Positions 10,017 through 29,089 of a stretch of 64,000 bases of DNA are shown piece by piece. Within the stretch, counting starts at the first letter, position 1, and each line of letters starts with the position of its first letter. The notes beneath the pieces were generated by a model. That model saw nothing but the letters and a program-made list of their open reading frames with translations, was not told the DNA's origin and searched no databases. Source of the stretch: an uncultured Chloroflexia bacterium (lineage in GTDB: Bacteria; Chloroflexota; Anaerolineae; Promineifilales; UBA4811); assembly GCA_963707345.1 (NCBI GenBank), contig CAVPPE010000003.1, positions 512,072 to 576,071 of the forward strand, written 5' to 3'. Made by a program: the position numbers and the translations under genes.

Positions 10017-10787
10017 ATGGACAAGGATAGCGCTAGCATCCAATCCATCGAACGGGCGGTTAAAATCCTCAAAGCATTCAGCCTAGACCAACCCGAATGG
10101 GGGGTAAACGAAATGGGCCGCCTGCTGAACCTGCACAAGAGTACGGTGTCCCGGTTGATGATGACCTTGGAGCGTGGAGGATTGCTCTGGCGCAACCCGG
10201 AGACCCAGCGCTACCAACTGGGAATCGACCTGATCGGGATGGCCTCACTGGTTACCAGCCACCTGGATGTCCGGGCTATGGCGCGCCCGTTCCTGCGGGA
10301 GCTTGCCGGCCGGTGTCAGGAGACTGTAAATTTGGTGGTGATGGACGAGGGCGATGTGGTCAACCTGGAGCAATTCGTGCCCCCAGCCCGGCAGGTGAAG
10401 AACATTGGCTACGTGGGGCGGCGCATGCCGGTGTATTGCACGGCCGCCGGCAAGGTGCTGCTGGCCTACCTCCCGGGGCACGAGCTGGAACAAAAGCTGC
10501 CAGCCGAATTGCACTGCTACACCGATCATACCATTTCTGACCTGGCTGTGCTGCGGGCCGAGTTGCGGCAGGTGCGGCAGATTGGATACGCTGTGGTCCA
10601 AGAAGAGTTGGAAATTGGGCTCAATGCCATTGCCGCGCCGGTGTTCGATCACGCCGGCCGCGTGCGGTATGCTGCCAGTGTTGCCGGGCCAGCCTATCGC
10701 GTCAAACCAGAACTGTTCCCAGAACTGGCCGGGCAGGTGGTGGCCACTGCGGCCGAGCTGTCCCGCCAACTGGGTTATCGGCCGTAG
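10017..10787 (+). CDS. IclR-family transcriptional regulator
   Basis: SIERAVKILKAFS...LHKSTVSRLMMTLE winged-HTH followed by an IclR effector domain (GLNAIAAPVFDHAGRV). Start is ambiguous: TTG 9990, GTG 9999 or ATG 10017. Confidence 0.85.
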   Translation: MDKDSASIQSIERAVKILKAFSLDQPEWGVNEMGRLLNLHKSTVSRLMMTLERGGLLWRNPETQRYQLGIDLIGMASLVTSHLDVRAMARPFLRELAGRCQETVNLVVMDEGDVVNLEQFVPPARQVKNIGYVGRRMPVYCTAAGKVLLAYLPGHELEQKLPAELHCYTDHTISDLAVLRAELRQVRQIGYAVVQEELEIGLNAIAAPVFDHAGRVRYAASVAGPAYRVKPELFPELAGQVVATAAELSRQLGYRP

Positions 10788-10794
10788 GGAAGGA

Positions 10795-10987
10795 GGCGAA
10801 CCGGGTCTTTTCACAACCCAGGCGTGAAGCGCGAGGGAAGACCGGTGAAACTCCGGAGCTGTCCCGCAACTGTAAGCCTGGCCCTCCCGGCCGGGCAAGC
10901 CAGACACCTTGGCTCCATGACTCTACCCTGAGATCTTCGTGGAAGGAGAACAGGCGTCCATCGATTGGATAGCCTGTTCTTTTTTTA
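10795..10987 (+). promoter_or_regulatory. Cobalamin (B12) riboswitch with intrinsic terminator expression platform
   Basis: Core AGGGAAGACCGGTGAAACTCCGGAGCTGTCCCGCAACTGTAAGC (10834-10877). B12-box-like AAGCCAGACACCTTGGC (10897-10913). Terminator stem GAACAGGC/GCCTGTTC (10948-10955 with 10972-10979) plus T7. Sits directly upstream of the corrinoid protein gene. Confidence 0.8.
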
Positions 10988-11012
10988 TTACATTCATTTA
11001 GGAGGTTTTGCG

Positions 11013-11648
11013 ATGGCAGACATTCTGCAAAAGATAGCGGAGAATTTGTATAGCGGCGAAGAAGAAGAGGTCGCTGCGCTGGTCGAAAAGTGCCTGGAGC
11101 AAGGAATGGCCCCGGCCGATATCCTGTCCAATGGCCTCATCGCTGGCATGGATGTGGTCGGCCGCGATTTCAAGGCGGGCGATCTGTTTGTGCCCGAGGT
11201 GTTGATTGCTGCCCGCGCCATGTCGGCCGGGATGGAAGTGTTGCGGCCGCTGCTGGCCGAGTCGGGTGCCGCCAGCACTGGCAAATTCCTCATCGGCACG
11301 GTCAAGGGCGACCTGCACGACATTGGCAAGAATCTGGTCAAGATGATGCTGGAAGGGGCTGGTTTTGAGACCGTTGACTTGGGCACCGATGTGGAGCCGA
11401 AGGTCTTTGTAGACAAGGTCCGCGAGCACAAGCCCCGCCTGATTGGGATGAGCGCGCTGCTTACCACCACCATGGTGTACATGAAGGCGACCATTGAGGC
11501 GCTGGAAGAAGCTGGCTTGCGCGATTCAGTCAAGATCATGGTGGGCGGCGCTCCGGTAACGGCCGCCTTTGCCCAGGATATTGGCGCCGATGCCTATGCC
11601 CCCGATGCGGCCAGCGCGGTGGACAAAGCGCGCGAACTGACCGCATAA
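11013..11648 (+). CDS. Methyltransferase cognate corrinoid protein (MtbC/MttC/MtgC-like B12-binding protein)
   Basis: ATG 11013 preceded by GGAGG. N-terminal B12-binding cap helix bundle, then a DxHxxG motif (GDLHDIGKN) and MSALLTTT. Confidence 0.9.
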   Translation: MADILQKIAENLYSGEEEEVAALVEKCLEQGMAPADILSNGLIAGMDVVGRDFKAGDLFVPEVLIAARAMSAGMEVLRPLLAESGAASTGKFLIGTVKGDLHDIGKNLVKMMLEGAGFETVDLGTDVEPKVFVDKVREHKPRLIGMSALLTTTMVYMKATIEALEEAGLRDSVKIMVGGAPVTAAFAQDIGADAYAPDAASAVDKARELTA

Positions 11649-11722: not shown

Positions 11723-13180
11723 GTGGCAAAACAGAAACGGCAACCACAGACGGGGTTACCCGGTGGTCAATACCGGCCGCTGACCGATGAACAAATAGCT
11801 TGCATCCACCAGGCGGCGCTCAGTATCTTGGACCGAACCGGCGTCCAGGTCGAGGAATCCGAAGCGCTGCGCCTGTTCCGGGATGCGGGCGCTTTGGTAA
11901 CTGGAAACCGGGTGCACATCCCGCGCGGCTTGGTAGATGATGCGGTTGTTTCGGCTCCCGAGCGGGTGGTGTTGGCCGGCCGGGATTCCCGCTGGGACCT
12001 GGAGTTGACCGGCTCGCAGGTACACATGGGCACCGGCGGCGCTGCGCTGACGGTGTTCGACATCGAGACCGGGCAGCCACGCCCGGCCGTGTTGCGGGAC
12101 GTGGCGGAATTGGCCCGGCTGGTGGATGCGCTGGATCATATTCACTTCTATCTTGTCCCCGTGTACCCAACGGACATGGGCAAAGACGAAGTGGATGTCA
12201 ACCAGTATTATGCTGGGCTGGCCAACACGGTCAAGCACGTCCAGTCCGGTGTGTACAGCGTGCAGGGCATCCGCGACACGGCGGCGATGGCGGAGCAGAT
12301 CGCCGGCGGCGCGACCGCGCTGCGCGAGCGGCCGATCGTATCCTTCATCACCAGCTGGATGGTTAGCCCGCTGCTGTTTGCCACCGATGTCACCACGCTG
12401 CTAATTGAAACCTGTCGCCAGGGGCTTCCGGTGGTGCTCTCGGCCGCGCCGATGGCCGGCTCAACCTCGCCGGTGACGCTGGCCGGCACGCTTGCCCAAC
12501 TGACGGCCGAACAACTGGCCGGTGTGGTGCTGACCCAACTGGTTCGCAAAGGGACGCCGGTAGTCATGGGCCCTATCCCCGCCACGGCCGACATGAAGAG
12601 CGGCCGCTACCTGGGTGGCTCGGCCGAGTTTGGGCTGACCAACGCGGCGATGGCACAAATCGCCCAGTTCTACCGGCTGCCGATCTACAACTCGGCCGGG
12701 ATGACCGATGCCAAAATCCCTGACATCCAGGCCGGCTTTGAAAAGGCGATGAGCGTGGTGCTGGCCGCGCTGGCCGGCAGCAACTTTATCCACCACGCGG
12801 CCGGGATGCTGGAAAACATGAATAGCGTCGCGGCCGAGCAGTTTGTCATTGACAATGACATCCTGGGTATGGCGTTGCGGGTCTTGCGCGGCGTGGAAGT
12901 GAGCGATGAAACCCTGGCGCTGGACACCATCCATCAGGTCGGTCCGGGCGGCCATTTCCTGATGGCCGACCACACGCTGCGCCACATGCGGACCGAGTTC
13001 TTTTATCCCTCGGCCGTGGTGGACCGGCGCGGCTGGGAAGGCTGGCTGGCGGATGGCGGCCGGGACGCGGCCGCCCGCGCCCGTGAGATCGCCCGCGACA
13101 TCCTAGCTAACCACCGGCCAGAGCCGCTGGCCCCGGCCGTGGACGGCTGGATTCGGCAGCGGTTTGCCCTAAAAATCTAA
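11723..13180 (+). CDS. MttB-superfamily methyltransferase, non-pyrrolysine (paralogue 1, subfamily A)
   Basis: 485 aa with trimethylamine-methyltransferase-family N-terminus (LTDEQIACIHQAALSILDRTGVQV) and no in-frame TAG. Most similar to paralogue 3. Confidence 0.9.
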   Translation: MAKQKRQPQTGLPGGQYRPLTDEQIACIHQAALSILDRTGVQVEESEALRLFRDAGALVTGNRVHIPRGLVDDAVVSAPERVVLAGRDSRWDLELTGSQVHMGTGGAALTVFDIETGQPRPAVLRDVAELARLVDALDHIHFYLVPVYPTDMGKDEVDVNQYYAGLANTVKHVQSGVYSVQGIRDTAAMAEQIAGGATALRERPIVSFITSWMVSPLLFATDVTTLLIETCRQGLPVVLSAAPMAGSTSPVTLAGTLAQLTAEQLAGVVLTQLVRKGTPVVMGPIPATADMKSGRYLGGSAEFGLTNAAMAQIAQFYRLPIYNSAGMTDAKIPDIQAGFEKAMSVVLAALAGSNFIHHAAGMLENMNSVAAEQFVIDNDILGMALRVLRGVEVSDETLALDTIHQVGPGGHFLMADHTLRHMRTEFFYPSAVVDRRGWEGWLADGGRDAAARAREIARDILANHRPEPLAPAVDGWIRQRFALKI

Positions 13181-13243: not shown

Positions 13244-14686
13244 GTGACGCAACAGATACCTGTTCCTACTTTGCATCCCACTATTCGGATGCTTTCGGAT
13301 GACCAGATCAAGGCCATCCACAACACCAGCCTGGACATCCTGGAGCAAACGGGCATTGTGATGAAACACGATTACGCCCGTGAGTTGCTGCTGGAAGCGG
13401 GCGCGTGGGAATCGGATAGGCGCATCAAGATTCCCGAGTTTATGGTGATGGATGCCATCGCCTCGGCGCCGTCGCGCATCCCCATGTACAACCGGTTGGG
13501 CGAGCTGGTGATGCCGCTGGAATCGGGCAAGGTCTTTTTTGGCCCTGGTTCCGATTGCATTTTCACCATGGACCTGGAAACTGGCGAAAGGCGATTTGCG
13601 ACGGCCGAAGACATCCGGCGAATTGCTCATCTCTGCAACGGTCTGCCGCAGATGGATTTCGTTATGTCAATGGGGAACCCATCGGACGTGCCGGCGATGG
13701 ACATTTACATTCACGAGTTTGTCAGCATGATCCGCGGCTCGGTCAAGCCCAACGTGTACACGGCCAACAACCGCGCGGACATGGAGGCCATCTACCGGAT
13801 TGCCTGCGCCGTGGCCGGTGGCGAGACGGCGCTGCGGGAAAAGCCTTTTATGATGTTGTATGCCGAGTCGATCTCGCCGCTGCTTTATCCGGAAGAGTCG
13901 GTAGACAAGCTGCTTTTCTGCGCCGAGGTGGGCATCCCGGTGACTTATCCGCCCTCGCCCAATACCGGCGGTGGCGGCCCGATTACTCTGGCGGGCGCGC
14001 TGGCGCTGGGCAACGCTGAGTGCCTGGTGGGGCTGATCCTGACCCAGTTGGTCCGGCCGGGTACCTCGTTCCTCTATGGCATGAACACGGCCGCGCTGGA
14101 CATGAAGTCGGCCATCGTCAGCTACGGCGCACCGGAGTGGCCCACCGGCATGGCCGCCTGGTGTGACCTTGCCCGCTATTATGACCTGCCCACCTGGGGC
14201 GCAGGCGGGGCGACCGACAGCAAGGTGGTGGACACCCAGGCTGGCATTGAGGCCACCACTTCGATCATGGCCGCGTTCCTGACCCGCTGCAATCTGGTCC
14301 ACGACGTGGGCTATATCGAATACGGCACCACTTCGTCCATGGAGATGCTGGTGGTGGCTGATGAGATTATCCGCGACATCCGCTTTATCATGGGTGGCGT
14401 GGAGGTGAGCGAGCGGACGCTGGCCCGTGAAGCGATTCACCGTGTCAAGCCGGGTGCCGGTTTCCTGGCCGAGGATCACACGCTCAAGAACTGGAAGTGG
14501 GCGCAGTGGCGGCCGGAGCTGATTGACCGCAGCCGCTACGACCGTTGGGTGAGCCAGGGCAGCAAGGATATGACCAAGCGCGCCAACGAGCGGGCGCGCA
14601 AAATCCTGGCAGAGCACCAGGTTCCGGCGCTGCCCCAGGCGGCCGAGGATGAGATCGCCCAGGTGCTGAAGGAGCGAGCCGGTTAG
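13244..14686 (+). CDS. MttB-superfamily methyltransferase, non-pyrrolysine (paralogue 2, subfamily B)
   Basis: 480 aa, GTG start after AAGGAGAG. LSDDQIKAIHNTSLDILEQTGI. Most similar to paralogue 4. Confidence 0.9.
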   Translation: MTQQIPVPTLHPTIRMLSDDQIKAIHNTSLDILEQTGIVMKHDYARELLLEAGAWESDRRIKIPEFMVMDAIASAPSRIPMYNRLGELVMPLESGKVFFGPGSDCIFTMDLETGERRFATAEDIRRIAHLCNGLPQMDFVMSMGNPSDVPAMDIYIHEFVSMIRGSVKPNVYTANNRADMEAIYRIACAVAGGETALREKPFMMLYAESISPLLYPEESVDKLLFCAEVGIPVTYPPSPNTGGGGPITLAGALALGNAECLVGLILTQLVRPGTSFLYGMNTAALDMKSAIVSYGAPEWPTGMAAWCDLARYYDLPTWGAGGATDSKVVDTQAGIEATTSIMAAFLTRCNLVHDVGYIEYGTTSSMEMLVVADEIIRDIRFIMGGVEVSERTLAREAIHRVKPGAGFLAEDHTLKNWKWAQWRPELIDRSRYDRWVSQGSKDMTKRANERARKILAEHQVPALPQAAEDEIAQVLKERAG

Positions 14687-14709: not shown

Positions 14710-16146
14710 ATGGCGCGTTTGGGTCTGCCGGGCGGGCAGTATCAGCCGCTGATGGCCGGAGAGGTTGAGCAGATTCACCAGGCATCCTTGCGGGTGCTGC
14801 AGGAGACCGGCCTGCGCGTGGAGAACGAGCGGGCGCTGGGCCTCTACCGGCGGGGCGGAGCCCGCATTGACGGCGACCGCGTTTATTTCCGGCCGGAGAT
14901 GGTAGCGGATGCGCTGCGAAAGGTACCGTCCCGCGTGTTGCTGGCCGGCCGTGACGCGGAGCAGGATCTGCTACTGGAGGGCAAACGGGTCTATGCCGGC
15001 ACCGGAGGTTCGCCGACCATGGTGCTGGACCCGGGCGCGGACACGGTCCGGCCGGGTGTGCTGCAAGACCTGGCGGACCTGGTCCGGCTGGTGGAAGCGC
15101 TGGCTTTCTGCGATTTCGTCGTCATCCCGCTGCACCCCACCGACGTCCCTGACGCGGAGGTGCCGATCAATCGCTTTTTTACCAGCCTGTCCAATACTGG
15201 CAAACACGTGATGGGCGGGGTTGGCTCGGTAGATGGCGCGCGCCAGGTGATCGAGTTGGGCACGCTGGTGGCGGGCAGCCTGGAAGCGCTCCAGGCCCGG
15301 CCGGTCATTTCGGCCATCGCCAGTTGGATGGTCAGCCCGTTGCAGCTGGACACTGGCGTGACCGACATCTTGCTGGAGTGGTGCCGACACGGGTTGCCCG
15401 TGGCGCTTTCCTCGGCACCCATGGCCGGCTCGACCTCCCCGGTTACGCTGGCCGGTTCTCTGGTTCAGCTCAACGCAGAGCAATTGAGCGGCATTGTGCT
15501 GACGCAACTGGCCCGTCCGGGCACGCCCGTTCTGGCCGGCTACATCCCCGGCGTAGCAGACATGCGCAGCGGCGGCTACCTGGGCGGCGCGGTTGAATTT
15601 GGGATGATGCAGGCGGCCGCGGCCCAACTGGCTCACTTTTATCGCGTGCCCATCTACTGCTCGGGCGGAATGACCGATAGCAAAGTGCCGGATGCCCAGG
15701 CCGGTTACGAGAAGATGAGCACCCTGCTGCTGGCGGCTATGGGTGGCTGCAACTATATTCACCACGCCATCGGCATGATCACCAATATGAACGCGACCTC
15801 CTTGGAGCAGGCGGTCATCGACGATGAGATTGTGGGCATGGCGATGCGGGTGTTGCGTGGAGTCCAGGTCTCTGATGATGTGATGGGTGTGGAGGCAATC
15901 GGCCGGGTGGGGCCGGGAGGCCATTACCTGACCGATCCCCACACGCTGCGATACATGCGTTCGGAACTGTTCCAGCCACACCTGTCGCATCGGCCGAGCC
16001 GGACGGTGTGGGAGGGGGAAGGCAAGCGGGATACGCGCGGCCGGGCGGCCGCTCGCGTGGAAACCCTGTTGCGCCAGCACAGCCTGCCCAAACTGCCGGA
16101 AACGGTGCAGGCGGCCGCCAAGGCGAGATTCCGGATTGTGGCATGA
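14710..16146 (+). CDS. MttB-superfamily methyltransferase, non-pyrrolysine (paralogue 3, subfamily A)
   Basis: 478 aa. LPGGQYQPLMAGEVEQIHQASLRVLQETGL aligns along its length with paralogue 1. Confidence 0.9.
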   Translation: MARLGLPGGQYQPLMAGEVEQIHQASLRVLQETGLRVENERALGLYRRGGARIDGDRVYFRPEMVADALRKVPSRVLLAGRDAEQDLLLEGKRVYAGTGGSPTMVLDPGADTVRPGVLQDLADLVRLVEALAFCDFVVIPLHPTDVPDAEVPINRFFTSLSNTGKHVMGGVGSVDGARQVIELGTLVAGSLEALQARPVISAIASWMVSPLQLDTGVTDILLEWCRHGLPVALSSAPMAGSTSPVTLAGSLVQLNAEQLSGIVLTQLARPGTPVLAGYIPGVADMRSGGYLGGAVEFGMMQAAAAQLAHFYRVPIYCSGGMTDSKVPDAQAGYEKMSTLLLAAMGGCNYIHHAIGMITNMNATSLEQAVIDDEIVGMAMRVLRGVQVSDDVMGVEAIGRVGPGGHYLTDPHTLRYMRSELFQPHLSHRPSRTVWEGEGKRDTRGRAAARVETLLRQHSLPKLPETVQAAAKARFRIVA

Positions 16147-18230: not shown

Positions 18231-18269
18231 TCCCCCACTGGGGACATTCCTGGACACTGGGGAGAGCCT

Positions 18270-22586: not shown

Positions 22587-23243
22587 ATGTTTGTAAAGGA
22601 TTATATGACTCGCCACCCGCTAATCGCGGAGCCAACCATGCCGGTGCTGGAAGCCCAGCGGTTTATGGGAGAGAACAAGGTTCGGCATTTGCCAGTAGTT
22701 GGAGATGGCAAACGCCTGCTCGGTCTGGTAAGCCGCCAGTCCTTGATGGTTGATCCCGGCAAACTGGGCAGCTTTAATCTATGGGAGATTGCCAGCTACA
22801 TGTCCGACCTGCGGGTGCAGGACGTGATGGTCAAGGCGGAGAACGTGTTTACCGTGCAGCCAAATGCAACACTAGAGGAAGCCACCCACATCATGGTGGA
22901 TCATCGGGTGGGGTGTTTGCCGGTAATGGAAAACAACGTCGTGGTCGGCATCATTACCGAGATTGATATGCTGGTCCATCTGTCCAACCTACTGGGTGGT
23001 CATGTGCACGGGGTGCGAGCAACGATCCGCGTCCCGGACCGCATTGGTGAGTATGCCAAGATCACCAACGCCGTCGCCAGCCGGGGATGGGGCATTTATG
23101 CCAGCGGCAGCGTGCAATCACCCAAGAATCCGGAATCTTGGGACGTGGTGATCAAGGTACGCAATGTACCTAAGGAACTGCTCGCGGCCGCGTTGATGAG
23201 CGTTGAGGAACAGGAACTGATCGACATCCGCGAGACGTCCTAG
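22587..23243 (+). CDS. CBS-pair domain protein with C-terminal ACT-like domain (AcuB-like)
   Basis: MFVKDYMTRHPLIAEPTMPVLEA...VRHLPVV and a second CBS (VQDVMVKAENVFTVQP...HRVGCLPVM). ATG at 22587 after AAGGAGAAG. The ORF-track 928-aa ORF is read-through of the upstream frame. Confidence 0.85.
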   Translation: MFVKDYMTRHPLIAEPTMPVLEAQRFMGENKVRHLPVVGDGKRLLGLVSRQSLMVDPGKLGSFNLWEIASYMSDLRVQDVMVKAENVFTVQPNATLEEATHIMVDHRVGCLPVMENNVVVGIITEIDMLVHLSNLLGGHVHGVRATIRVPDRIGEYAKITNAVASRGWGIYASGSVQSPKNPESWDVVIKVRNVPKELLAAALMSVEEQELIDIRETS

Positions 23244-23314: not shown

Positions 23315-24307
23315 ATGCCGCTAGTCGATGAGTTTGTCGCCATGTTTGGGGTCTGGGAAGAGGCCGGGCCGTACCTGACGCTGATGTTCTCTGAACAGGA
23401 GATGCAACTGATTGTGCGCATGGCCGGCCGCACCCTGTCAGCCGATGAACTGGCGGCCGAGATCGCCCTGTCGGTCGCGGAGGCCGAACCGTTGCTGGAT
23501 AGCTGCTATCGGCGCCGGTTGATGGACCGCGCGTTGCGAGACGGCGTGCCAGTTTTCACCTCCACCGATCTGTACCGCTTCTTGAATCACTTTGCGCGCT
23601 ATGAGCGCTGGGATGAGATTCCGCCCGCCGGCCGCCAGTCGCTTGATCGGCGCTTTCTGGCCGAGTTTATCGCCCGCGTCCGGCCGGGAGTGGAGGGCAA
23701 ACTGTCCGGCCGGTTGACGGGCAGCGCTCTCCCCAATGACGCCGTCATGTTGCTCCATGAAGTGGATGCGATGCTGGACGCCGCGACTGACATCGTGGTC
23801 CAGCCATGTGATTGCCGCCGTTTGGCGCAAAACTGCGACCGGCCGGTGGAGGTCTGCATCTGGCTGGACGACGGCGCGCGGGATGCGCTGGCGCGCGGTC
23901 ACGGCCGGCAACTCACCCGCGAGGAGGCCAAGGAGCTGGTGCGCTGGGCGGACAAAAAGGGGCTGATGCACACGGCCGACAGCGACTGGCACAACCGTGG
24001 TCTGCACGCCATCTGCAATTGCTGCGGTTGCGATTGCTATCCCTTCCGCGCTGCGCGGGAGCTGGGCAGCGAACATCTTTGGCCCCAGCGACGGTATGTT
24101 GCAGCTTACGACCCGGCCGCCTGCTCCGTGTGCGGCCTCTGCGTCCAGCGCTGCCATTTTGAAGCCTTTTTCCACGACGGCACCACGGCCGAGGTCAAGG
24201 GCAAGAGCAAGCTGGTGGTCCACTACGATTCCGGCCGCTGCTGGGGGTGCGGGTTGTGCGCCAACGCCTGCCCGGCCGCTGCTATTGTGATGGAACCGCT
24301 GGATTGA
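23315..24307 (+). CDS. Cys-rich Fe-S protein with C-terminal 2x[4Fe-4S] ferredoxin domain
   Basis: 330 aa. Unusual CNCCGCDCYPF cluster, then CSVCGLCVQRC and CWGCGLCANACP ferredoxin motifs. I do not recognise the N-terminal 200 aa. Confidence 0.75.
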   Translation: MPLVDEFVAMFGVWEEAGPYLTLMFSEQEMQLIVRMAGRTLSADELAAEIALSVAEAEPLLDSCYRRRLMDRALRDGVPVFTSTDLYRFLNHFARYERWDEIPPAGRQSLDRRFLAEFIARVRPGVEGKLSGRLTGSALPNDAVMLLHEVDAMLDAATDIVVQPCDCRRLAQNCDRPVEVCIWLDDGARDALARGHGRQLTREEAKELVRWADKKGLMHTADSDWHNRGLHAICNCCGCDCYPFRAARELGSEHLWPQRRYVAAYDPAACSVCGLCVQRCHFEAFFHDGTTAEVKGKSKLVVHYDSGRCWGCGLCANACPAAAIVMEPLD

Positions 24308-24316
24308 GGGGTAGGG

Positions 24317-24874
24317 ATGGAACCCTGGAAAACGCTCTCGCGCAAAACCATCCTGGACCACAGTAAATTCCTGCGTGTGGAAGAACATGTGGTGCAACTG
24401 CCGGACGGCCGGGTCATCCCGGACTGGCCCTGGGTGATTGCGCCGGATTATGTTAATGTGGTTATACTGACGGAAGACCGCCGCTGGGTGTTGTTCCGGC
24501 AGGTCAAATACGGGGTAGATGGCACCTCGCTGGCCCCGGTGGGCGGCTATCTGGAGCCGGACGAGGACCCGCTGGCGGCCGCCCAACGGGAGATGCTGGA
24601 GGAGACCGGCTACGCGGCCGACCGGTGGGTCAGCCTGGGGCGCTTTCGGGTGGGGGCCAACCGGGGCTATGGGATGGCCAACTTTTACCTGGCGCTGGGA
24701 GCCCGCCGGGTGGCCGAGCCGGACGCCGATGACCTGGAGGAACAGCAGTTGCTGCTTCTGACACGGGTTGAGGTGGAGCAAGCGCTTGCGACCGGCGGAT
24801 TCAAAGTGCTGGCGTGGGCTTCCATTGTGGCATTGGCATTGCAGCATCTGGATAGGCATGACCCGGATTGTTGA
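24317..24874 (+). CDS. NUDIX hydrolase (ADP-ribose pyrophosphatase-like)
   Basis: Nudix box GGYLEPDEDPLAAAQREMLEETGY. Confidence 0.85.
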   Translation: MEPWKTLSRKTILDHSKFLRVEEHVVQLPDGRVIPDWPWVIAPDYVNVVILTEDRRWVLFRQVKYGVDGTSLAPVGGYLEPDEDPLAAAQREMLEETGYAADRWVSLGRFRVGANRGYGMANFYLALGARRVAEPDADDLEEQQLLLLTRVEVEQALATGGFKVLAWASIVALALQHLDRHDPDC

Positions 24875-26289
24875 CCTGCTGGCGGTGCCGATTGCCGGTG
24901 CATATTACACGGAGGACCTGGCTGCGCTGCAGGCCAGGCCGATCCCGCTGGAGGCGCGCTACACGGCCGAGGCGGTCACGGCAGGCTTTCACGCCGTGCG
25001 ACAGGTGGCGGAAGGGGTCTCCGTGGGGCTGGTGCTCGAACTCGGGCCAGGTGGCCTGGGGCGACTGCGTGGCGGTGGCCTACAGCGGCAAGGCCGGCCG
25101 GGAGCCGGTCTTTTCCAGTCAGGCAGGAATGACCGCCATCCGGGAGCGGGTTGCTTCGCTGCTGATTGGGCGTTCGCTGACCAGCTTTCGCGAGTTGGCG
25201 GCCGCGGTGGACGCGCTGACAGAAGAGGTGACGGTAGAGCGGCCGGCCCCACCGCCAGAGTTGGCCGATGAAGACCCCATCATCCGGCCGGAGATGTCCC
25301 GCCGCGAGTTGCTGACGGCTCCGGCCCGCTTTCTCCGCGCGGTGCAGCAGGAGGTGGAGACGGAATCCGGGCCGGCGATGGAGCAAGTGCTGCTAACCCG
25401 GCCGCTTCATCCAGCCGTCCGCTACGGTGTCAGCCAGGCGCTACTGGCGGCCGCGGCGCAAGCGCGCCACCGGACCATGGCCGAGGTGATTTGCCAGGAG
25501 TGGGGCCTGCCCCGGCCGGTGGCGCTGGTTCCCATCCACGCCCAATGCGGGGGTGATCGCTACCACGGGGCGGACAAGATGATCGTTCGGCGAGTAACCT
25601 CGTTGCCTCACGCGCTGGTTGACGATATCCCGGAGCAGTTGGGCTCCGACGGGGGCAAGCTGGTGCAATACGTCCGCTGGCTGGCCGGCCGCATCCGGCA
25701 ATTGGGCGGCCCCAATTACCGGCCGACGATCCACATCGACGTCCACGGCGCGCTGGGCAAGATCTTTGACAACCAGCCAGGCAGGGTCTTGGGCCAGTTG
25801 GGCGCGCTCGAAAAAGCGGCGCAGCCCTATCCGTTACGGGTCGAATGCCCGGTGATGCTGGACAGCCGCCAGGCGCAGATGGACGCCATGCGCACCTTGC
25901 GCGACTATCTCCGCTTTCGCAAGTTTTCCGTCCAGTTGGTGGCTGACGAATGGGCCAACACGCTGGACGACATTTGCGCGTTTGCCGCGGCCGGCGCGGC
26001 CGATATGATCCAGATCAAAATGCCCGACCTGGGGGGCATCCACAACGCGGTGGACGCCGTGCTGGTTTGCAATGCGGCCGGGGTGGAGGCTTTCCTGGGG
26101 GGGAGTTGCGCCGAAACCGACCTCTCCGCCCGGGTTTCCGTACACCTGGCGCTGGCCGCACGGCCGGCGATGGTGATGGCCAAACCCGGCATGGGGGTGG
26201 ATGAGGCGGTGGTGCTGGCGCAAAACGAGATGGCCCGCACCCTGGCCTGGCTCCAGGCGTCGCCGGCCGGGGATTGGCATTTGACATAA
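24858..26289 (+). pseudogene. mal: Methylaspartate ammonia-lyase family enzyme (enolase superfamily), frame broken by a 1-nt insertion near 25044-25048
   Basis: N-terminus MTRIVDLLAVPIAGAYYTEDL...VSVGLVLELG lies in frame 0 and continues as QVAWGDCVAVAYSGKAGREPVF in frame +1. The C-terminus ADMIQIKMPDLGGIHNAVDAVL...AKPGMGVDEAVVLAQNEMARTLAWL matches MAL hallmarks, including the QIK catalytic lysine context. Confidence 0.85.
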
Positions 26290-26303
26290 TCAGAAAGGCA
26301 ACT

Positions 26304-27752
26304 ATGGACACCAACTACACGGCTCACCAAACTCCACAATTTCGCGTTCTGTCAGACCAGCAGATCAACAGGCTTTACCAGGCTACCCTGGAATGCCTCA
26401 ATCGCACTGGTGTCAATGTGCTGAATGCCGAGGCGCGCGAGCTGCTGGCAGCGGCCGGCGCGCGCGTGGATGGGGTGCGGGTGCGGATTCCGCCGCACAT
26501 TATCCAGGATGGGGTAGCCGCCAACCCGCGCTCCTTTACTCTCTGGGGGCGGGATGGCAAACCACGCATTCAGGTGGTCCCCGGCCGGGTACACTTTGGC
26601 CCCGGTCCCACCTGTACCTACTACGTGGACCCGGAGACCGGCGAGCGTCGCAAGACACGCCGCGGCGACCCGGCGCAAACCGCGCGTGCCTGTGATGCGT
26701 TGGATAACATTGATTATGTCATGTCGCTGGGATTGATTGACGACGTGACCTCCTCGCTGGCCTCAGTGTACGAGTTTGCCGAAATGATAGCCAACACCGT
26801 CAAGCCGGTGCTGGCCTGGGCATTTGCCCCCGACCAGGTGTCGGACATCTACCAGATGGCGGTGGCGGTGGCGGGAGGGGAGGAGACGCTGCGCCGCCGG
26901 CCGTTCCTGGCCTTTTTCTCCACCTTTCAATCGCCGTTGGTGCTCACCCAGGAGGATATGGCCAATGTCTTCCGCGCGGCCGAGCATGACCTGCCGATCG
27001 TATTCCTCGGCGGCGGCTCGCTGGGCCAGACCGGGCCGGTTACCGGTGCCGGCCTGATCGTCACCTATTTGGCCGGCGCGCTGGCCGGCCTGGCAGCCAT
27101 CCAGTTGAAAAAGCGGGGCACGGCCGTTTGCATTGGCGGGGTGCCACAAGCCATGGATCTGCGCACCGGCCGGATTGCCTATGGCTCCCCGGAGATGAGC
27201 CTGCTCAGCGCGGCCATGTCCGATATCTCCCGCTGGCTGGGGGTGCCGTTTATGGGCACGGCCGGCGCGTCCGAGGCCAAGCTGGTGGACGTGCAGGCGG
27301 CTATCGAGAGCACAATGCAGGTGGTCTTTTCGCTGCTCAGTGGCGCAACTTTGGTGCACGACGTGGGCTTTTTGGACTGCGCTGACATTGGCTCGCTGGA
27401 GATGTTGGTGATGAGCGATGAGATCATTGCCATGTCCCGGCGAGTCATGCGCGGGGTGGAGGTCAGCGATGGCACCCTGGCGCTGGAGCTGATAGATCGG
27501 GTTGGCCCAGGCGGCGAATTTATGTCTACTAAAGAGACGGCCCGGCTCTGCCGGACGGAGATCTGGACCCCCACCGTGCTGGACCGGGATTCGTGGGTGA
27601 GCTGGGAGGCGGCCGGGGCGCAGACCGCGCACGACCGCATCCGGGCCAAGTTACGCAAGATTCTGGCCACACACCGGCCGGAACCCCTCCCGGCCGGCGC
27701 GCAGGAGCAGATTGATGCCATTTTGTGGGCAGCCGAGGAGCGCGAAGTATGA
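26304..27752 (+). CDS. MttB-superfamily methyltransferase, non-pyrrolysine (paralogue 4, subfamily B)
   Basis: LSDQQINRLYQATLECLNRTGVNV aligns with paralogue 2. ATG at 26304, just after the MAL stop (26287-26289). Confidence 0.9.
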   Translation: MDTNYTAHQTPQFRVLSDQQINRLYQATLECLNRTGVNVLNAEARELLAAAGARVDGVRVRIPPHIIQDGVAANPRSFTLWGRDGKPRIQVVPGRVHFGPGPTCTYYVDPETGERRKTRRGDPAQTARACDALDNIDYVMSLGLIDDVTSSLASVYEFAEMIANTVKPVLAWAFAPDQVSDIYQMAVAVAGGEETLRRRPFLAFFSTFQSPLVLTQEDMANVFRAAEHDLPIVFLGGGSLGQTGPVTGAGLIVTYLAGALAGLAAIQLKKRGTAVCIGGVPQAMDLRTGRIAYGSPEMSLLSAAMSDISRWLGVPFMGTAGASEAKLVDVQAAIESTMQVVFSLLSGATLVHDVGFLDCADIGSLEMLVMSDEIIAMSRRVMRGVEVSDGTLALELIDRVGPGGEFMSTKETARLCRTEIWTPTVLDRDSWVSWEAAGAQTAHDRIRAKLRKILATHRPEPLPAGAQEQIDAILWAAEEREV

Positions 27753-29089
27753 GCATCCGGCCGGTCACCGACTTGATCACCAGCCTGAGCTGGGAGCGGG
27801 TGCCACCGGCCGCCCGGGAACGGGCGCGGCTGGCCTTTCTCGATACCCTGGGGGCCATGCTGGTGGGCACGCTGGCCCCGGTAGCGGGTATCACGGCCGA
27901 TATGGCGGCCGAGACCTGGCCCGGCGATGCAGCCACTATTCTGCTGACCGGCCGGCGGGCGTCGGCCGTGGGGGCCGCCTTTGCCAATGGCTATGCAGCC
28001 AACGGAATCGACATCGACGATTGCGCCCTCTACACCAAGGGGCACCCCGGCGCACAGATTGTGCCCACGGCGCTGGCACTGGCGGAGGCGTTGGGGCGCA
28101 GCGGCGCGGAGATGCTGACGGCCGTGGTGGTGGGGTACGAGGTCGCGCACCGGATGGCGCGCATCTGGCACGTCACCCACGAGGTGTACCAGGCATGCGG
28201 CTCGTGGGGCTCGGTGGCCTGCGCGGCCGTCGCCGCACATCTGCTCCGCCTTGCTCCATCCCAAACGGAGCACGCGCTGGGCATTGCCGAGTATCACGCC
28301 CCCAACCTGCCGATGATGCGGGATATTGACCATCCAACGATGGTCAAGCACGGTATTGGCTGGGGTGCGATGACCGGCATCATGGCCGCTCAACTGGCGG
28401 CCCGTGATTTTACCGGAGTCCCGTGCAGTTTGGGCTTTCCGGAGTACTCGGATTGGGTGGCGGACGTCGGCCGGTGCTATGTGATGGTGGACGGCATTGC
28501 CTGGAAGGGGTACGCGTGTTGCGCCTGGGCGCACGCCACGCTGCGGGCGGCCGAAGGGCTGGTGGCGGCGCATCCCATCCGGCCGGAGGCCATCGCCCAC
28601 GTCCGGGTGGAGCTTCCGCGCGACGGCGTCCGGCTGGGCGGCCGGCTGCCCACGACCACCGAGGAAGCGCAATTCAACGTCGCCTGGCCACTGGCGGCTT
28701 TGTTGGTGGATGGGGAGGTGGGGCCGGAGCAGGTGCTGCCCCATCGCCTGTCTGATCCCCGCTTGCAGGCGTTGGTTGGCAAGGTGGAACTGGTGGAAAC
28801 GGCCGAGCTGAACGACCTTTACCGGCGTGCGCAGCAGGGCGACCCGACCGGCCGCTATGCCAGCGTAGTCACCATCACACTGCATGACGGGCAAGCGTTC
28901 CGCTCTGGCATGGTGGAGGGCGAGATTAACTACCCGCAGGCGGGATGGGACGCGGAGCGGGTAGAAGCCAAGTTCAGTTGGCTGGGCGGCCGGGTGCTGG
29001 ATTCCGAAAGACTGGCCCAGGTGTTGTCCGTGGGGCGAAAGATGGACGGGGTCGCTACTGTGGCCGCTCTGACCGGATTGCTGCGTTAG
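27749..29089 (+). CDS. MmgE/PrpD-family protein (2-methylcitrate dehydratase-like)
   Basis: MSIRPVTDLITSLSWERVPPAARERARLAFLDTLGAMLVG is a typical PrpD-family N-terminus. ATGA overlap with paralogue 4. Confidence 0.88.
   Translation: MSIRPVTDLITSLSWERVPPAARERARLAFLDTLGAMLVGTLAPVAGITADMAAETWPGDAATILLTGRRASAVGAAFANGYAANGIDIDDCALYTKGHPGAQIVPTALALAEALGRSGAEMLTAVVVGYEVAHRMARIWHVTHEVYQACGSWGSVACAAVAAHLLRLAPSQTEHALGIAEYHAPNLPMMRDIDHPTMVKHGIGWGAMTGIMAAQLAARDFTGVPCSLGFPEYSDWVADVGRCYVMVDGIAWKGYACCAWAHATLRAAEGLVAAHPIRPEAIAHVRVELPRDGVRLGGRLPTTTEEAQFNVAWPLAALLVDGEVGPEQVLPHRLSDPRLQALVGKVELVETAELNDLYRRAQQGDPTGRYASVVTITLHDGQAFRSGMVEGEINYPQAGWDAERVEAKFSWLGGRVLDSERLAQVLSVGRKMDGVATVAALTGLLR

What the first reader, a model, noticed from the sequence alone, without database searches (positions are those of the whole stretch)
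10017..29089. B12-dependent methyltransferase island with four non-Pyl MttB paralogues and a peptide/opine-type importer
One DxHxxG corrinoid protein is followed by three MttB-family genes, and a fourth lies 10 kb downstream. By eye they fall into two subfamilies (1 with 3; 2 with 4). None has an in-frame TAG, so all are non-pyrrolysine members. Characterised relatives of this kind demethylate quaternary amines (glycine betaine, proline betaine, carnitine, gamma-butyrobetaine). The transporter here is not the betaine type (OpuA/ProU). It is a family-5 SBP with GsiA-like fused ATPase, the class used for peptides, glutathione and opines. The island also has an IclR regulator and CBS, Fe-S, NUDIX, MAL-like and PrpD-like genes. 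No methylcorrinoid:tetrahydrofolate methyltransferase or RamA-type reductive activase is visible in the window. The substrate or substrates and the methyl acceptor are therefore open questions.
Basis: partly seen in the sequence, partly recalled or inferred. Interest (0 to 1): 0.7.

Follow-up and report, generated by a model that had tools for sequence, protein, structure and literature searches.

The report
Corrinoid demethylation island with odd lyase
An uncultured Anaerolineae bacterium carries a conserved vitamin-B12-dependent gene island that strips methyl groups from an imported, still unidentified nitrogen compound; its four methyltransferases and a modified ammonia-lyase resemble no characterised enzyme, which points to an undescribed breakdown pathway.

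Summary
Window 10017-29089 encodes, all on the + strand: IclR, a corrinoid protein, three MttB genes, a family-5 SBP ABC importer, a CBS protein, an Fe-S protein, NUDIX, a MAL-like gene, a fourth MttB and a PrpD-like gene. No MttB has an in-frame stop.

New findings:
- The island is syntenic in many uncultured Anaerolineae, so it is a unit and not a chance neighbourhood.
- All four MttBs lack the Arg (MtgB R312) reported as conserved in every characterised non-Pyl member.
- The MAL-like protein belongs to a separate subfamily. Q73, the amine-pocket residue, is never Gln (A/S/E/C, or P in two divergent copies). F170 is His, and there is a 50-60 aa insertion.
- This subfamily sits next to MttB4 orthologues in 23 of 32 informative metagenome loci. 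Canonical MAL does so in 0 of 14.
- The PrpD-like protein is closest to iminodisuccinate epimerase.
- A cobalamin riboswitch with a terminator precedes the corrinoid gene.
- Relatives carry a pterin-binding methyltransferase and an ASKHA ATPase inside the island. The window has neither.
- Three 1-nt frameshifts at homopolymers are probably assembly errors.

Verdict: a new variant of corrinoid-dependent methylamine catabolism. The substrate is unknown; an N-methylated aspartate-type amino acid is my best guess.

The parts
10017..10787 (+). IclR-family transcription regulator
   Evidence: Pfam IclR_C 1.9e-46 plus HTH_IclR. An IclR gene sits at the same position in L023, L133, L134 and L135.
10786..10931 (+). 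Cobalamin riboswitch aptamer (RF00174)
   Evidence: 41.4 bits against a gathering score of 31.5.
10941..10990 (+). Hairpin plus U-run (intrinsic-terminator-like expression platform). The RBS AGGAGG lies at 11000-11005.
   Evidence: Read from the sequence. The MFE fold shows a long stem before UUUUUUU.
11013..11648 (+). Corrinoid (B12-binding) protein, DxHxxG = GDLHDIG
   Evidence: Pfam B12-binding_2 and B12-binding. TIGR02370 216.2 against cut-off 215.3. 77% identical to the corrinoid protein of the syntenic island L135.
11723..13180 (+). MttB1. Non-Pyl MttB with Met at the Pyl column. Signature G-Y-H-M at MtgB Y97/R312/H348/F356.
   Evidence: PF06253 1.4e-122. Alignment and residues. A PYLIS_3 hit at 12701-12800 has AUG in place of UAG. 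120 or more orthologues at 67-81% identity, with Chloroflexota or Anaerolineae labels wherever a source names one.
13244..14686 (+). MttB2. Non-Pyl MttB, signature S-W-H-G, Ala at the Pyl column.
   Evidence: PF06253 1.1e-96. Residues. Orthologues at 67-71% in L008 and L030, always followed by an MttB3 orthologue.
14710..16146 (+). MttB3. Paralogue of MttB1 (51% identity), signature G-Y-H-M, Met at the Pyl column.
   Evidence: PF06253 8.8e-109.. PYLIS_3 hit at 15670-15773.
16463..18163 (+). Family-5 solute-binding lipoprotein (Tat motif RREFLR, lipobox LASC)
   Evidence: SBP_bac_5 2.9e-80. The sequence itself. The best PDB match is only E 2e-36, to an unspecified peptide SBP, so no ligand can be inferred. 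A strong hairpin plus T-run follows at 18188-18222.
18225..20450 (+). Two ABC permeases (DppB/OppB-like 18225-19568; DppC/OppC-like 19578-20450)
   Evidence: BPD_transp_1 with BPD_transp_1_N and OppC_N.
20457..22563 (+). Fused double ABC ATPase (GsiA-like), 701 aa once a 1-nt frameshift at CCCC 21830-21833 is removed
   Evidence: Two ABC_tran domains plus oligo_HPY. Frame analysis. Intact 695-700 aa orthologues.
22641..23243 (+). Stand-alone CBS-pair protein (200 aa)
   Evidence: CBS 3.2e-21. Conserved directly after the ATPase in 20 or more related loci at 50-61% identity.
23315..24307 (+). Fe-S protein: N-terminal winged-helix-like domain, a Cys-rich middle domain, and a C-terminal 2x[4Fe-4S] ferredoxin domain. 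It is not RamA/RACo-like.
   Evidence: Fer4 families only, at residues 260-329. 17 invariant or near-invariant Cys. AF2 model pLDDT 92.5. Foldseek finds only domain-level matches to ferredoxin modules and wHTH regulators. An FeS gene lies upstream of the MAL-like gene in 19 of 36 informative loci. The family also occurs in unrelated contexts.
24317..24874 (+). NUDIX hydrolase, probably not part of the system
   Evidence: NUDIX 1.7e-11. No homologue in any of about 130 related loci.
24858..26289 (+). MAL-like enolase-superfamily C-N lyase, variant subfamily, 476 aa once a 1-nt frameshift at GGGCC 25044-25048 is removed
   Evidence: MAAL_N and MAAL_C. TIGR01502 398 bits. The PDB alignment shows Q73->A, F170->H, T360->S and L384->M, with the catalytic and metal residues kept. 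Subfamily statistics.
26274..27752 (+). MttB4. Non-Pyl MttB, signature P-M-H-A, Ala at the Pyl column.
   Evidence: PF06253 1.9e-82. An orthogroup at 55-77% identity in Anaerolineae and Desulfobacterota keeps the signature almost without exception.
27725..29089 (+). MmgE/PrpD-family protein, closest to iminodisuccinate epimerase
   Evidence: MmgE_PrpD_N and _C. Best PDB hit is IDS-epimerase 2hp0 at E 1.1e-21, then cis-aconitate decarboxylases. Orthologues at 55-67% identity lie near MttB4 in more than 15 loci.

Best explanation
This is a conserved catabolic island of anaerobic Anaerolineae. It imports a small N-methylated, amino-acid-like compound and harvests its methyl groups through a corrinoid relay.

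Proposed steps:
1. A Tat-exported family-5 binding lipoprotein, two permeases and a double ATPase import the substrate. This is inferred from the families.
2. The MttB paralogues each bind a methylated-amine species and pass one methyl group to Co(I) of the single His-on corrinoid protein. Either they act on successive methylation states or on related compounds. This is inferred from the family; no activity has been shown.
3. The methyl-Co(III) protein is unloaded onto tetrahydrofolate by a pterin-binding methyltransferase. In this genome that gene must lie outside the window. In relatives it sits inside the same island. This is inferred from synteny.
4. Inactive Co(II) is re-reduced by an activase encoded elsewhere. 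Relatives place a hydantoinase_A/MutL-like ASKHA ATPase next to the corrinoid gene. The conserved Fe-S protein may supply low-potential electrons. This step is speculative.
5. MttB4 works with a specialised MAL-like C-N lyase. The lyase keeps the whole MAL catalytic apparatus but has a remodelled amine pocket (Q73 to A/S/E) and a remodelled alkyl pocket (F170H, L384M). It therefore cleaves an N-substituted or N-methylated aspartate-type skeleton to a fumarate-type acid plus an amine. The IDS-epimerase-like PrpD protein adjusts stereochemistry. This is inferred from residues and gene linkage.
6. Expression is controlled by IclR and, for the corrinoid-MttB1-3 operon, by a cobalamin riboswitch.

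The substrate is not one of the known MttB-family substrates. My best guess is an N-methylated aspartate-type amino acid or betaine.
For: Gene content and order.

The island is a unit.
- The order SBP, permease, permease, ATPase, CBS, (FeS), MAL-like, MttB4, (PrpD) recurs in many Anaerolineae MAGs and metagenome contigs.
- IclR, MttB1-orthologue, MttB, MttB, SBP and onward recurs in L133-L136.
- One contig (Ga0307430_1000190, loci L136 and L072) carries the whole series from the corrinoid protein to PrpD.

The substrate is not a known one.
- R312 of MtgB makes the salt bridge to the substrate carboxylate and is reported as conserved in all characterised non-Pyl members (PMC13080624).
- The window proteins have Y, W, Y and M at that column, and their orthologues do the same.
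- In a neighbour-joining tree MttB2 and MttB4 lie in a large clade with no reference. MttB1 and MttB3 lie next to Pyl-MttB.

The MAL-like subfamily.
- The window protein has Ala at Q73. This is the same change as the engineered Q73A variant (PDB 3zvh), which accepts alkylamines and makes N-substituted aspartates.
- In 53 metagenome members Q73 is A 23, S 12, E 11, C 1 and never Q. F170 is His in 51 of 51.
- Every apparently full-length member carries a 50-70 aa insertion; the six shortest of the 53 recovered sequences do not show it.
- K331, H194, D238, E273, D307, Q329 and Q172 are kept in at least 50 of 53.
- All 27 canonical MALs in the same search keep Q73 and F170 and have no insertion.

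Linkage: 25 of 32 subfamily loci with enough downstream DNA have an MttB within 3.5 kb, and 23 of 32 have an MttB4 orthologue. For canonical MAL the count is 0 of 14.

The PrpD-like protein's best solved relative is an epimerase of N-(1,2-dicarboxyethyl)aspartate.

Other genes found next to MttB4 orthologues in other genomes are amino-acid or hydroxy-acid enzymes:
- a PRK07475 protein with a sub-threshold Asp/Glu-racemase Pfam match (12 loci);
- PLP gamma-lyase family;
- Kbl plus a Tdh-like ADH;
- BKACE;
- ADH plus a Desulfovibrio-type Mo aldehyde oxidoreductase.

THF as acceptor: a pterin-binding protein (NF005719, 278 bits against cut-off 259) lies inside the syntenic islands L135, L008 and L030.

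Riboswitch.
Against: - No step has experimental support, and the substrate is guessed.
- I could not align MtcB, MtpB, MtyB or MthB directly because no sequences were available. The R312 argument therefore rests on MtgB, 4yyc and a statement in the paper.
- Four divergent MAL-like orthologues have lost K331 or D307, so lyase chemistry is not universal in the subfamily.
- PrpD-like and FeS genes are present in only part of the loci. The FeS family also occurs beside unrelated genes.
- The accessory genes vary a lot between genomes and point to several different skeletons (threonine-like, homoserine-like, carnitine-like). That weakens the aspartate-type guess.
- The window copies of the ATPase and the MAL-like gene are frameshifted. 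If these shifts are real, the island is inactive in this organism.
- A canonical B12 riboswitch would switch a B12-dependent operon off when B12 is plentiful. I cannot explain this.
Confidence: 0.5

Rival explanations
1. Two or three independent modules are packed side by side rather than forming one pathway. The corrinoid protein with MttB1-3 would serve one methylated amine. FeS, MAL-like, MttB4 and PrpD would serve a different compound. The ABC importer would serve one or both.
For: - MttB1-3 and MttB4 belong to different clades.
- MAL-like plus MttB4 occurs without MttB1-3 in many loci, and the reverse also occurs.
- A 316-nt gap with a promoter-like site separates MttB3 from the SBP gene, and a terminator-like hairpin follows the SBP gene.
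- Accessory genes differ between genomes.
Against: - The window has a single corrinoid protein for all four MttBs.
- The complete order recurs in another organism on one contig (L136 plus L072).
- MttB3 orthologues sit directly upstream of the same SBP in L004, L133 and L048.
- This reading overlaps with the best explanation more than it excludes it.
Confidence: 0.25
2. This is an ordinary quaternary-amine cluster (glycine betaine, proline betaine, carnitine, gamma-butyrobetaine or choline phosphate) of the kind already characterised in Desulfitobacterium and Eubacterium. The MAL-like, PrpD-like and other genes would be unrelated neighbours.
For: - All characterised non-Pyl MttB members use such substrates.
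- NCBIfam's best corrinoid match is an MtgC model, though far below its cut-off (224 bits against 370).
Against: - Three of the four MtgB substrate-binding residues, including the essential R312, are absent from all four paralogues and their orthologues.
- Identity to MtgB is 26-34%.
- There is no betaine-type transporter.
- MAL-like is linked to MttB4 in 23 of 32 loci against 0 of 14 for canonical MAL, which is far from chance.
Confidence: 0.12
3. Fumarate-carrier route. The MAL-like enzyme first adds a simple methylamine (MMA, DMA or TMA) to fumarate. The resulting N-methylated aspartates are the true substrates of the MttB paralogues. Fumarate is regenerated at the end. This would be a pyrrolysine-independent way to demethylate methylamines.
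For: - Wild-type MAL already adds methylamine, and Q73A adds larger amines.
- Position 73 is A, S or E in nearly every subfamily member, which gives room or charge for a bulkier or cationic nitrogen.
- Several MttB paralogues could serve successive methylation states.
- MttB1 and MttB3 are the closest relatives of Pyl-type MttB, yet carry Met at the Pyl codon.
Against: - The tightly linked peptide/opine-type ABC importer would be unnecessary for volatile methylamines.
- No aspartase or fumarate-related gene is conserved in the island.
- There is no precedent.
Confidence: 0.06
4. The MAL-like gene is a genuine methylaspartate ammonia-lyase of the glutamate-fermentation (mesaconate) pathway, as an automatic annotation would name it.
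For: TIGR01502 scores 398 bits, above its 286-bit cut-off. All catalytic and Mg-binding residues are present.
Against: - No glutamate mutase genes are in the window. The only B12-binding protein is a methyltransferase-type corrinoid protein (MutS model 42 bits against cut-off 110).
- Q73 and F170 are invariant in 27 canonical MALs but replaced in the whole subfamily, which also has a 50-60 aa insertion.
- The subfamily's neighbours are MttB genes, not glutamate mutase genes.
Confidence: 0.04

Closest known systems
MtgB/MtgC/MtgA glycine betaine:THF methyl transfer system (Desulfitobacterium hafniense), and the Eubacterium limosum systems MtpB, MtcB, MtyB and MthB
   Same: A non-pyrrolysine MttB-family TIM-barrel methyltransferase is encoded next to a DxHxxG corrinoid protein. 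In relatives of this island a pterin-binding methyltransferase is also present.
   Different: - Identity to MtgB is 26-34%.
- Y97, R312 and F356 of the MtgB binding site are absent from all four paralogues.
- Four paralogues share one corrinoid protein.
- The importer is a peptide/opine-type ABC system, not a betaine transporter.
- The system is coupled to a MAL-like lyase.
- The host is an Anaerolineae fermenter, not an acetogen or an organohalide respirer.
Pyrrolysine-containing trimethylamine methyltransferase MttB (Methanosarcina barkeri, PDB 7xcl)
   Same: It is the best PDB hit of MttB1 (38% identity, E 6.5e-80). It has Tyr at the R312 column, as MttB1 and MttB3 do. The coding sequence around the Pyl codon is similar enough to trigger Rfam PYLIS_3.
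   Different: The UAG codon is AUG (Met) in MttB1 and MttB3 and their orthologues. TIGR02369 scores of 380-461 fall below its 525-bit cut-off. Nothing in the window indicates Pyl machinery.
3-Methylaspartate ammonia-lyase (Clostridium tetanomorphum 1kcz, Citrobacter 1kko) and its engineered Q73A variant (3zvh)
   Same: Same fold and full-length alignment. Q172, H194, D238, E273, D307, Q329, K331 and C361 are conserved. The window protein has Ala at position 73, like the engineered variant with broad amine scope.
   Different: About 40% identity. A 50-60 aa insertion lies between the N- and C-terminal domains. F170 is His, T360 is Ser and L384 is Met. The neighbours are MttB genes, not glutamate mutase.
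Iminodisuccinate (IDS) epimerase, MmgE/PrpD family (Agrobacterium, PDB 2hp0)
   Same: It is the best solved relative of the PrpD-like protein (E 1.1e-21). It acts on an N-substituted aspartate, which fits the inferred lyase substrate class.
   Different: The similarity is distant. Cis-aconitate decarboxylases score nearly as well. The function was not tested.
Enolase-superfamily betaine epimerases with demethylases in proline-betaine and hydroxyproline-betaine catabolism (HpbD pathway; from my own knowledge, not checked with the tools)
   Same: An enolase-superfamily enzyme is encoded together with N-demethylating enzymes and an ABC importer for an amino-acid betaine.
   Different: HpbD belongs to the MR/MLE subgroup and its demethylases are Rieske oxygenases. 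Here the enzyme is of the MAL subgroup and demethylation is corrinoid-dependent and anaerobic.

Membership tests
MttB superfamily (PF06253) | Full-length match to the MTTB profile | tested here: met
   E-values 1.4e-122, 1.1e-96, 8.8e-109 and 1.9e-82, covering profile positions from about 21-30 to 487-495 of 500.
MttB superfamily (PF06253) | A cognate corrinoid protein with a DxHxxG His-on motif is encoded nearby | tested here: met
   Corrinoid protein 11013-11648 with GDLHDIG. TIGR02370 216.2 against cut-off 215.3.
Pyrrolysine-type TMA methyltransferase MttB | In-frame UAG at the Pyl position; TIGR02369 equivalog cut-off | tested here: not met
   No in-frame stop. The Pyl column is M, A, M, A. 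Scores are 461, 413, 422 and 380 against a cut-off of 525.
MtgB glycine betaine methyltransferase | Substrate-binding residues Y97, R312, H348 and F356 (PMC13080624) | tested here: not met
   The four paralogues read G/S/G/P, Y/W/Y/M, H/H/H/H and M/G/M/A. Only H348 is kept.
Characterised acidic quaternary-amine MttB members (MtcB, MtpB, MtyB, MthB) | The Arg equivalent to MtgB R312 is conserved, according to the paper | tested here: not met
   Arg is absent from all four paralogues and from their orthologues.
Characterised acidic quaternary-amine MttB members (MtcB, MtpB, MtyB, MthB) | Phylogenetic clustering with those proteins | not testable with these tools
   Their sequences could not be obtained.
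3-Methylaspartate ammonia-lyase (EC 4.3.1.2) | Catalytic bases K331 and H194, Mg ligands D238, E273 and D307, plus Q329 and Q172 | tested here: met
   All are present in the window protein and in at least 50 of 53 subfamily members.
3-Methylaspartate ammonia-lyase (EC 4.3.1.2) | Amine-pocket Q73 and alkyl-pocket F170 and L384, as in all canonical MALs | tested here: not met
   The window protein has A73, H170 and M384. In the subfamily Q73 is never Q and F170 is His in 51 of 51. Canonical MALs keep both in 27 of 27.
3-Methylaspartate ammonia-lyase (EC 4.3.1.2) | Genomic association with glutamate mutase (GlmS/GlmE) | tested here: not met
   None is in the window. The neighbours are MttB genes.
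RamA/RACo reductive activases of corrinoid enzymes | ASKHA ATPase domain (RACo_C_ter) joined to an Fe-S domain | tested here: not met
   The Fe-S protein has only ferredoxin-domain matches. Its fold is wHTH, then a Cys-rich domain, then 2x[4Fe-4S]. No such gene is in the window.
Methyl-THF:corrinoid methyltransferase (MtgA/MtqA/AcsE type, PF00809) | Pterin-binding domain protein in the locus | tested here: not met
   Absent from the 64-kb window (Pfam; tblastn). Present in the syntenic islands L135, L008 and L030.
Cobalamin riboswitch (RF00174) | Score at or above the Rfam gathering threshold, located in a 5' leader | tested here: met
   41.4 bits against 31.5, at 10786-10931, between IclR and the corrinoid gene, followed by a terminator-like hairpin.
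Opp/Dpp/Gsi-type ABC importer | SBP_bac_5, two BPD_transp_1 permeases (OppC_N), and ATPase(s) with oligo_HPY | tested here: met
   The ATPase is a fused double ATPase as in GsiA and is frameshifted in the window.
MmgE/PrpD family | N- and C-terminal family domains | tested here: met
   1.4e-46 and 3.5e-27. The specific activity (dehydratase, epimerase or decarboxylase) was not tested. The PrpD equivalog scores 34 bits against a cut-off of 950.

The most novel reading that the evidence does not exclude
The MAL-like lyase and the MttB paralogues form a pyrrolysine-independent cycle for demethylating simple methylamines. The lyase adds mono-, di- or trimethylamine to fumarate. The resulting N-methylated aspartates, up to aspartate betaine, are demethylated stepwise on the corrinoid protein. 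Fumarate is then regenerated. Fumarate would thus act as a catalytic carrier that replaces the chemical role of pyrrolysine.
Probability: 0.05. Interest if true: 0.9.

Novelty: new variant of a known kind. Interest (0 to 1): 0.6.

Why it matters
The MttB superfamily has thousands of members, but only about six substrates are known, all from gut acetogens, Desulfitobacterium and methanogens.

This island gives a concrete lead to a further substrate class in Anaerolineae, an abundant and mostly uncultured sediment and sludge lineage. The lead has two parts:
- a defined MttB clade (MttB4) with an almost invariant and unusual pocket signature;
- its habitual partner, a natural MAL variant whose amine pocket carries the very change (Q73A) that protein engineers introduced to make N-substituted aspartates.

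If confirmed, three things would follow:
- a new anaerobic route for methylated nitrogen compounds into the C1 pool, relevant to methylamine, TMA and methane precursor budgets;
- natural C-N lyases of biocatalytic interest;
- a correction to automatic annotation, which would call these genes 'trimethylamine methyltransferase' and 'methylaspartate ammonia-lyase'.

The B12 riboswitch in front of a B12-dependent operon is a separate regulatory puzzle.

Tried and rejected
- **PYLIS_3 hits.** The Rfam hits inside MttB1 and MttB3 looked like a pyrrolysine signal. The alignment shows AUG where the model has UAG, few base pairs, and plain coding-sequence homology. I rejected them as evidence of Pyl.
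- **Fe-S protein as a RamA substitute.** There is no ASKHA domain and no whole-protein structural match. The family also occurs next to unrelated genes. Its role stays unresolved.
- **SBP ligand.** The best PDB match is E 2e-36, to an unspecified peptide SBP. Opine, nickel and glutathione binders all score weaker. No ligand can be inferred.
- **Source organism and the rest of the genome.** Exact-protein look-ups returned only short Logan contigs without DNA and an unnamed 845-kb contig. I could not search the genome for MtgA or RamA genes.
- **Are the frameshifts assembly errors?** I looked up the repaired MAL-like and ATPase proteins in the 15-billion-protein collection. Neither was found, so the test is inconclusive.
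- **Literature.** I found no paper linking MttB with MAL, and none on homoserine-betaine catabolism or on Anaerolineae MttB function. No newly characterised MttB member beyond MthB turned up. I also found no supplement holding the sequences of MtcB, MtpB, MtyB or MthB.
- **Nicotinate or trigonelline reading.** A Mo-hydroxylase often lies next to MttB4 in relatives, which suggested this. Its best solved relatives are Desulfovibrio aldehyde oxidoreductases, not nicotinate dehydrogenase, and the window has no such gene. I dropped the idea.
- **Riboswitch in related loci.** None was found upstream of corrinoid genes in 15 loci, so it is not a conserved feature of the island.

Full report
**What is there.**
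- IclR;
- a corrinoid protein with B12-binding_2 and B12-binding domains and the motif GDLHDIG;
- three MttB-family genes;
- a family-5 binding protein, two permeases and a double ABC ATPase;
- a CBS-pair protein;
- a 330-aa Fe-S protein;
- a NUDIX hydrolase;
- a methylaspartate-ammonia-lyase-like (MAL-like) gene;
- a fourth MttB gene;
- an MmgE/PrpD-family gene.

The MttB matches have E-values from 1e-82 to 1e-122 and cover almost the whole Pfam profile. None is interrupted by a stop codon, so all four are non-pyrrolysine forms. Pfam scans of all large ORFs and a tblastn search found no pterin-binding methyltransferase, no MtaA/UroD-type gene and no RamA/RACo-type gene anywhere in the 64 kb.

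**Corrections to the gene models.**
- The apparent 928-aa ATPase is a 701-aa double ATPase broken by a 1-nt frameshift at CCCC 21830-21833. A separate 200-aa CBS protein follows it. Orthologues are intact and 695-700 aa long.
- The MAL-like gene begins at ATG 24858 and has a 1-nt frameshift at GGGCC 25044-25048.
- A third frameshift lies in an unrelated OB-fold/HD gene at TTTTCCCC, about 29814-29821.
- All three shifts sit at short homopolymers, and one is in a housekeeping-type gene. Several related long-read MAGs show similarly split genes. I therefore think they are assembly errors. I could not prove this, because the repaired proteins are not in the protein collection.

**Organism and conservation.** MttB4 found 44 loci in the species-representative genomes. 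All but one are metagenome-assembled genomes; the exception is Desulfococcaceae bacterium HSG9. The best loci (up to 77% identity) belong to Anaerolineae or Chloroflexota, and weaker ones to Desulfobacterota.
- tblastn of the island proteins shows that the order SBP, permease, permease, ATPase, CBS, (FeS), MAL-like, MttB4, (PrpD) recurs in many of them. It also recurs in contigs found through the Fe-S protein.
- MttB1 has more than 100 orthologues at 67-81% identity; those that carry a source name are labelled Chloroflexota or Anaerolineae.
- Their contexts repeat the left half of the island: IclR, MttB1-type, MttB, MttB, SBP and onward.
- One contig carries the whole series from the corrinoid protein to PrpD (L136 plus L072).
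- NUDIX has no counterpart in any related locus, so it is probably an unrelated insertion.

The island is therefore a conserved unit and not a chance neighbourhood.

**The four MttB proteins.**
- MttB1 and MttB3 are 51% identical. All other pairs share 30-37%.
- Identity is 26-34% to D. hafniense MtgB and 30-38% to M. barkeri Pyl-MttB.
- A 2026 study of MtgB showed that Y97 and F356 hold the quaternary nitrogen and that R312 and H348 hold the carboxylate. R312L is inactive. The paper states that R312 is conserved in all characterised non-Pyl members (MtcB, MtyB, MtpB, MthB), whose substrates are all acidic quaternary amines (PMC13080624).
- In my alignment the four window proteins have Y, W, Y and M at the R312 column. 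Only H348 is kept.
- Each paralogue's signature is conserved in its orthologues. MttB4 reads P/L-M-H-A plus Ala at the Pyl column in about 40 sequences from two phyla. MttB2 reads S-W-H-G-A. MttB3 reads G-Y-H-M-M.
- In a neighbour-joining tree without bootstrap support, MttB1 and MttB3 lie next to Pyl-MttB. MttB2 and MttB4 lie in a large clade with no reference.
- Limitation: I could not obtain the E. limosum sequences, so their placement rests on the paper's statement.

**PYLIS hits.** Rfam reports PYLIS_3 inside MttB1 and MttB3 and their orthologues. The model's first triplet, UAG, is AUG here, and the match is essentially coding homology. It shows relatedness to Pyl-type mttB, not Pyl use.

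**The MAL-like protein.**
- The repaired 476-aa protein aligns over its full length with the solved MALs. It keeps Q172, H194, D238, E273, D307, Q329, K331 and C361.
- It has Ala at Q73, His at F170, Ser at T360 and Met at L384, plus a roughly 60-aa insertion between the two domains.
- Q73A is the engineered C. tetanomorphum variant (PDB 3zvh). It accepts linear and cyclic alkylamines and yields N-substituted aspartates. L384A widens the scope at the C3 substituent.
- A metagenome scan with this protein returned 53 close relatives (51-74% identity) and 27 canonical MALs (37-44%).
- In the close relatives Q73 is A 23, S 12, E 11 and C 1, never Q. F170 is His in 51 of 51. The insertion is present in every apparently full-length sequence; the six shortest of the 53 do not show it.
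- In the canonical group Q73 and F170 are invariant and the insertion is absent.
- Of subfamily loci with at least 2 kb downstream, 25 of 32 have an MttB gene within 3.5 kb and 23 of 32 have an MttB4 orthologue. Of canonical MAL loci, 0 of 14 do.
- This is a distinct, undescribed MAL subfamily that is habitually paired with one MttB clade. NCBIfam's MAL equivalog would still name it methylaspartate ammonia-lyase (398 bits against a 286-bit cut-off).
- There is no glutamate mutase in the window.

**Other members.**
- The PrpD-like protein's best solved relative is iminodisuccinate epimerase, which acts on an N-substituted aspartate. Cis-aconitate decarboxylases come next, and 2-methylcitrate dehydratase does not appear.
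- The Fe-S protein belongs to a large uncharacterised family with 17 invariant or near-invariant cysteines. A confident model (pLDDT 92.5) shows a winged-helix-like N-terminal domain, a Cys-rich middle domain and a 2x[4Fe-4S] ferredoxin domain. No whole-protein structural relative was found. It is not RamA-like. It precedes the MAL-like gene in 19 of 36 informative loci, but it also occurs beside unrelated genes.
- The SBP is a Tat lipoprotein of family 5 and is too distant from solved structures to infer a ligand.

**The parts missing from the window are present in relatives.**
- In L135 the order is IclR, pterin-binding methyltransferase, 672-aa hydantoinase_A/MutL-like ASKHA ATPase, corrinoid protein (77% identical to the window's), MttB1 orthologue and onward.
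- The pterin-binding protein passes NCBIfam's model for methyltetrahydrofolate:corrinoid methyltransferase (278 bits against 259). It also lies inside the islands of L008 and L030.
- The ASKHA ATPase recurs next to corrinoid and MttB genes in a Halanaerobiaceae MAG, L041.
- I infer that THF is the methyl acceptor and that this ATPase is a candidate activase. In the window's genome both must be encoded elsewhere.

**Regulation.** A cobalamin riboswitch (41.4 bits against a gathering score of 31.5) lies at 10786-10931. It is followed by a long hairpin with a U-run, an AGGAGG site and, a few bases further on, the corrinoid ATG at 11013. The canonical reading is that B12 causes termination, which is odd for a B12-dependent operon. 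I leave this unexplained. The riboswitch is not present in the 15 related loci I scanned.

**Hints on the substrate from accessory genes in relatives (none is in the window).**
- A Desulfovibrio-type Mo aldehyde oxidoreductase, often with an FAD subunit, in 18 of 70 loci.
- Zn- or Fe-ADH, with threonine dehydrogenase as the best NCBIfam match, in 14 loci.
- A PRK07475 protein with a sub-threshold Asp/Glu-racemase Pfam match, in 12 loci.
- PLP gamma-lyase-family enzymes, BKACE, SDR, class-I GATase and AFOR.
- In Desulfobacterota, a bona fide glycine C-acetyltransferase (Kbl) next to a Zn-ADH.

All of these are amino-acid or hydroxy-acid enzymes. They vary between genomes, which suggests a family of related pathways for methylated amino-acid-like compounds and not a single fixed route.

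**Most likely mechanism.** The substrate is imported by the ABC system. The MttB paralogues transfer methyl groups to the single corrinoid protein. An unlinked pterin-binding methyltransferase unloads them onto THF. The carbon-nitrogen skeleton is processed by the variant MAL-like lyase, helped by the IDS-epimerase-like protein, to give a fumarate-type acid and an amine.

What is shown: gene content, conservation, residue patterns and linkage statistics. What is inferred: every catalytic step and the nature of the substrate. I put 0.5 on this overall picture and about 0.3 on the substrate being an N-methylated aspartate-type amino acid or betaine. The rivals are set out separately: independent adjacent modules, an ordinary betaine cluster, a fumarate-carrier route for simple methylamines, and a genuine MAL.

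**Verdict.** The system belongs to the known class of corrinoid-dependent methylamine methyltransferase systems. It differs from it in three ways: in the substrate-binding residues of all four methyltransferases, in its conserved pairing with a new MAL subfamily, and in its importer type. I rate it a new variant of a known kind, with interest 0.6.

Noticed in passing
window 10786-10990: A cobalamin riboswitch with a terminator-like hairpin lies directly upstream of the corrinoid-protein gene. An apparent B12-OFF switch in front of a B12-dependent operon is unexpected. It is absent from the 15 related loci scanned.
   Followed up: partly
window 12701-12800 and 15670-15773; also L004, L008, L030, L133, L135: Rfam PYLIS_3 (pyrrolysine insertion sequence of mttB) scores above its gathering threshold inside MttB1, MttB3 and their orthologues. 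The triplet aligned to UAG is AUG (Met). This could mislead automatic annotation.
   Followed up: yes
window 21830-21833, 25044-25048, about 29814-29821: Three single-base frameshifts at short homopolymers, in the ABC ATPase, the MAL-like gene and an OB-fold/HD-domain gene. They are probably long-read assembly errors, but real pseudogenisation is not excluded.
   Followed up: partly
L135 5929-9044; L008 15468-16322; L030 14141-14995; L041 4732-6678: Related islands carry a methyl-THF:corrinoid methyltransferase next to the corrinoid or MttB genes. L135 and L041 also carry a 672-aa hydantoinase_A/MutL-like ASKHA ATPase, a candidate non-RamA corrinoid activase.
   Followed up: partly
L135 1919-4830: Two tandem genes encode DHDPS-family domains fused to a formaldehyde-activating-enzyme (Fae) domain, just upstream of the IclR and pterin-methyltransferase genes of the related island.
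   Followed up: no
window 54189-63976 (- strand): A 1366-aa DUF6519 protein, a 695-aa protein with no family match and two Baseplate_J-like genes. Together they look like part of a contractile-injection-system or phage-tail-like cluster.
   Followed up: no
window 18188-18222: A 16-bp hairpin followed by a T-run lies directly after the SBP gene. This is the kind of internal attenuator often seen in ABC operons.
   Followed up: no
window 23315-24307: The Fe-S protein represents a large uncharacterised family (609 homologues at E <= 0.001 among the candidates scored). It has a winged-helix-like N-terminal domain and motifs such as PCDCRR and CNCCxCDCYPF. No solved structure matches the whole protein.
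   Followed up: partly
window 4-3450: A multi-GAF SpoIIE-type phosphatase (at least 1148 aa, cut by the window edge).
   Followed up: no
L028 10001-16225 (Desulfobacterota): An MttB4 orthologue is followed by a PRK07475 protein (sub-threshold Asp/Glu-racemase Pfam match), an MtgB-like MttB (Y-R-H signature), a glycine C-acetyltransferase (Kbl equivalog) and a Zn-ADH. This could be a route from a beta-hydroxy amino-acid betaine to glycine betaine.
   Followed up: no
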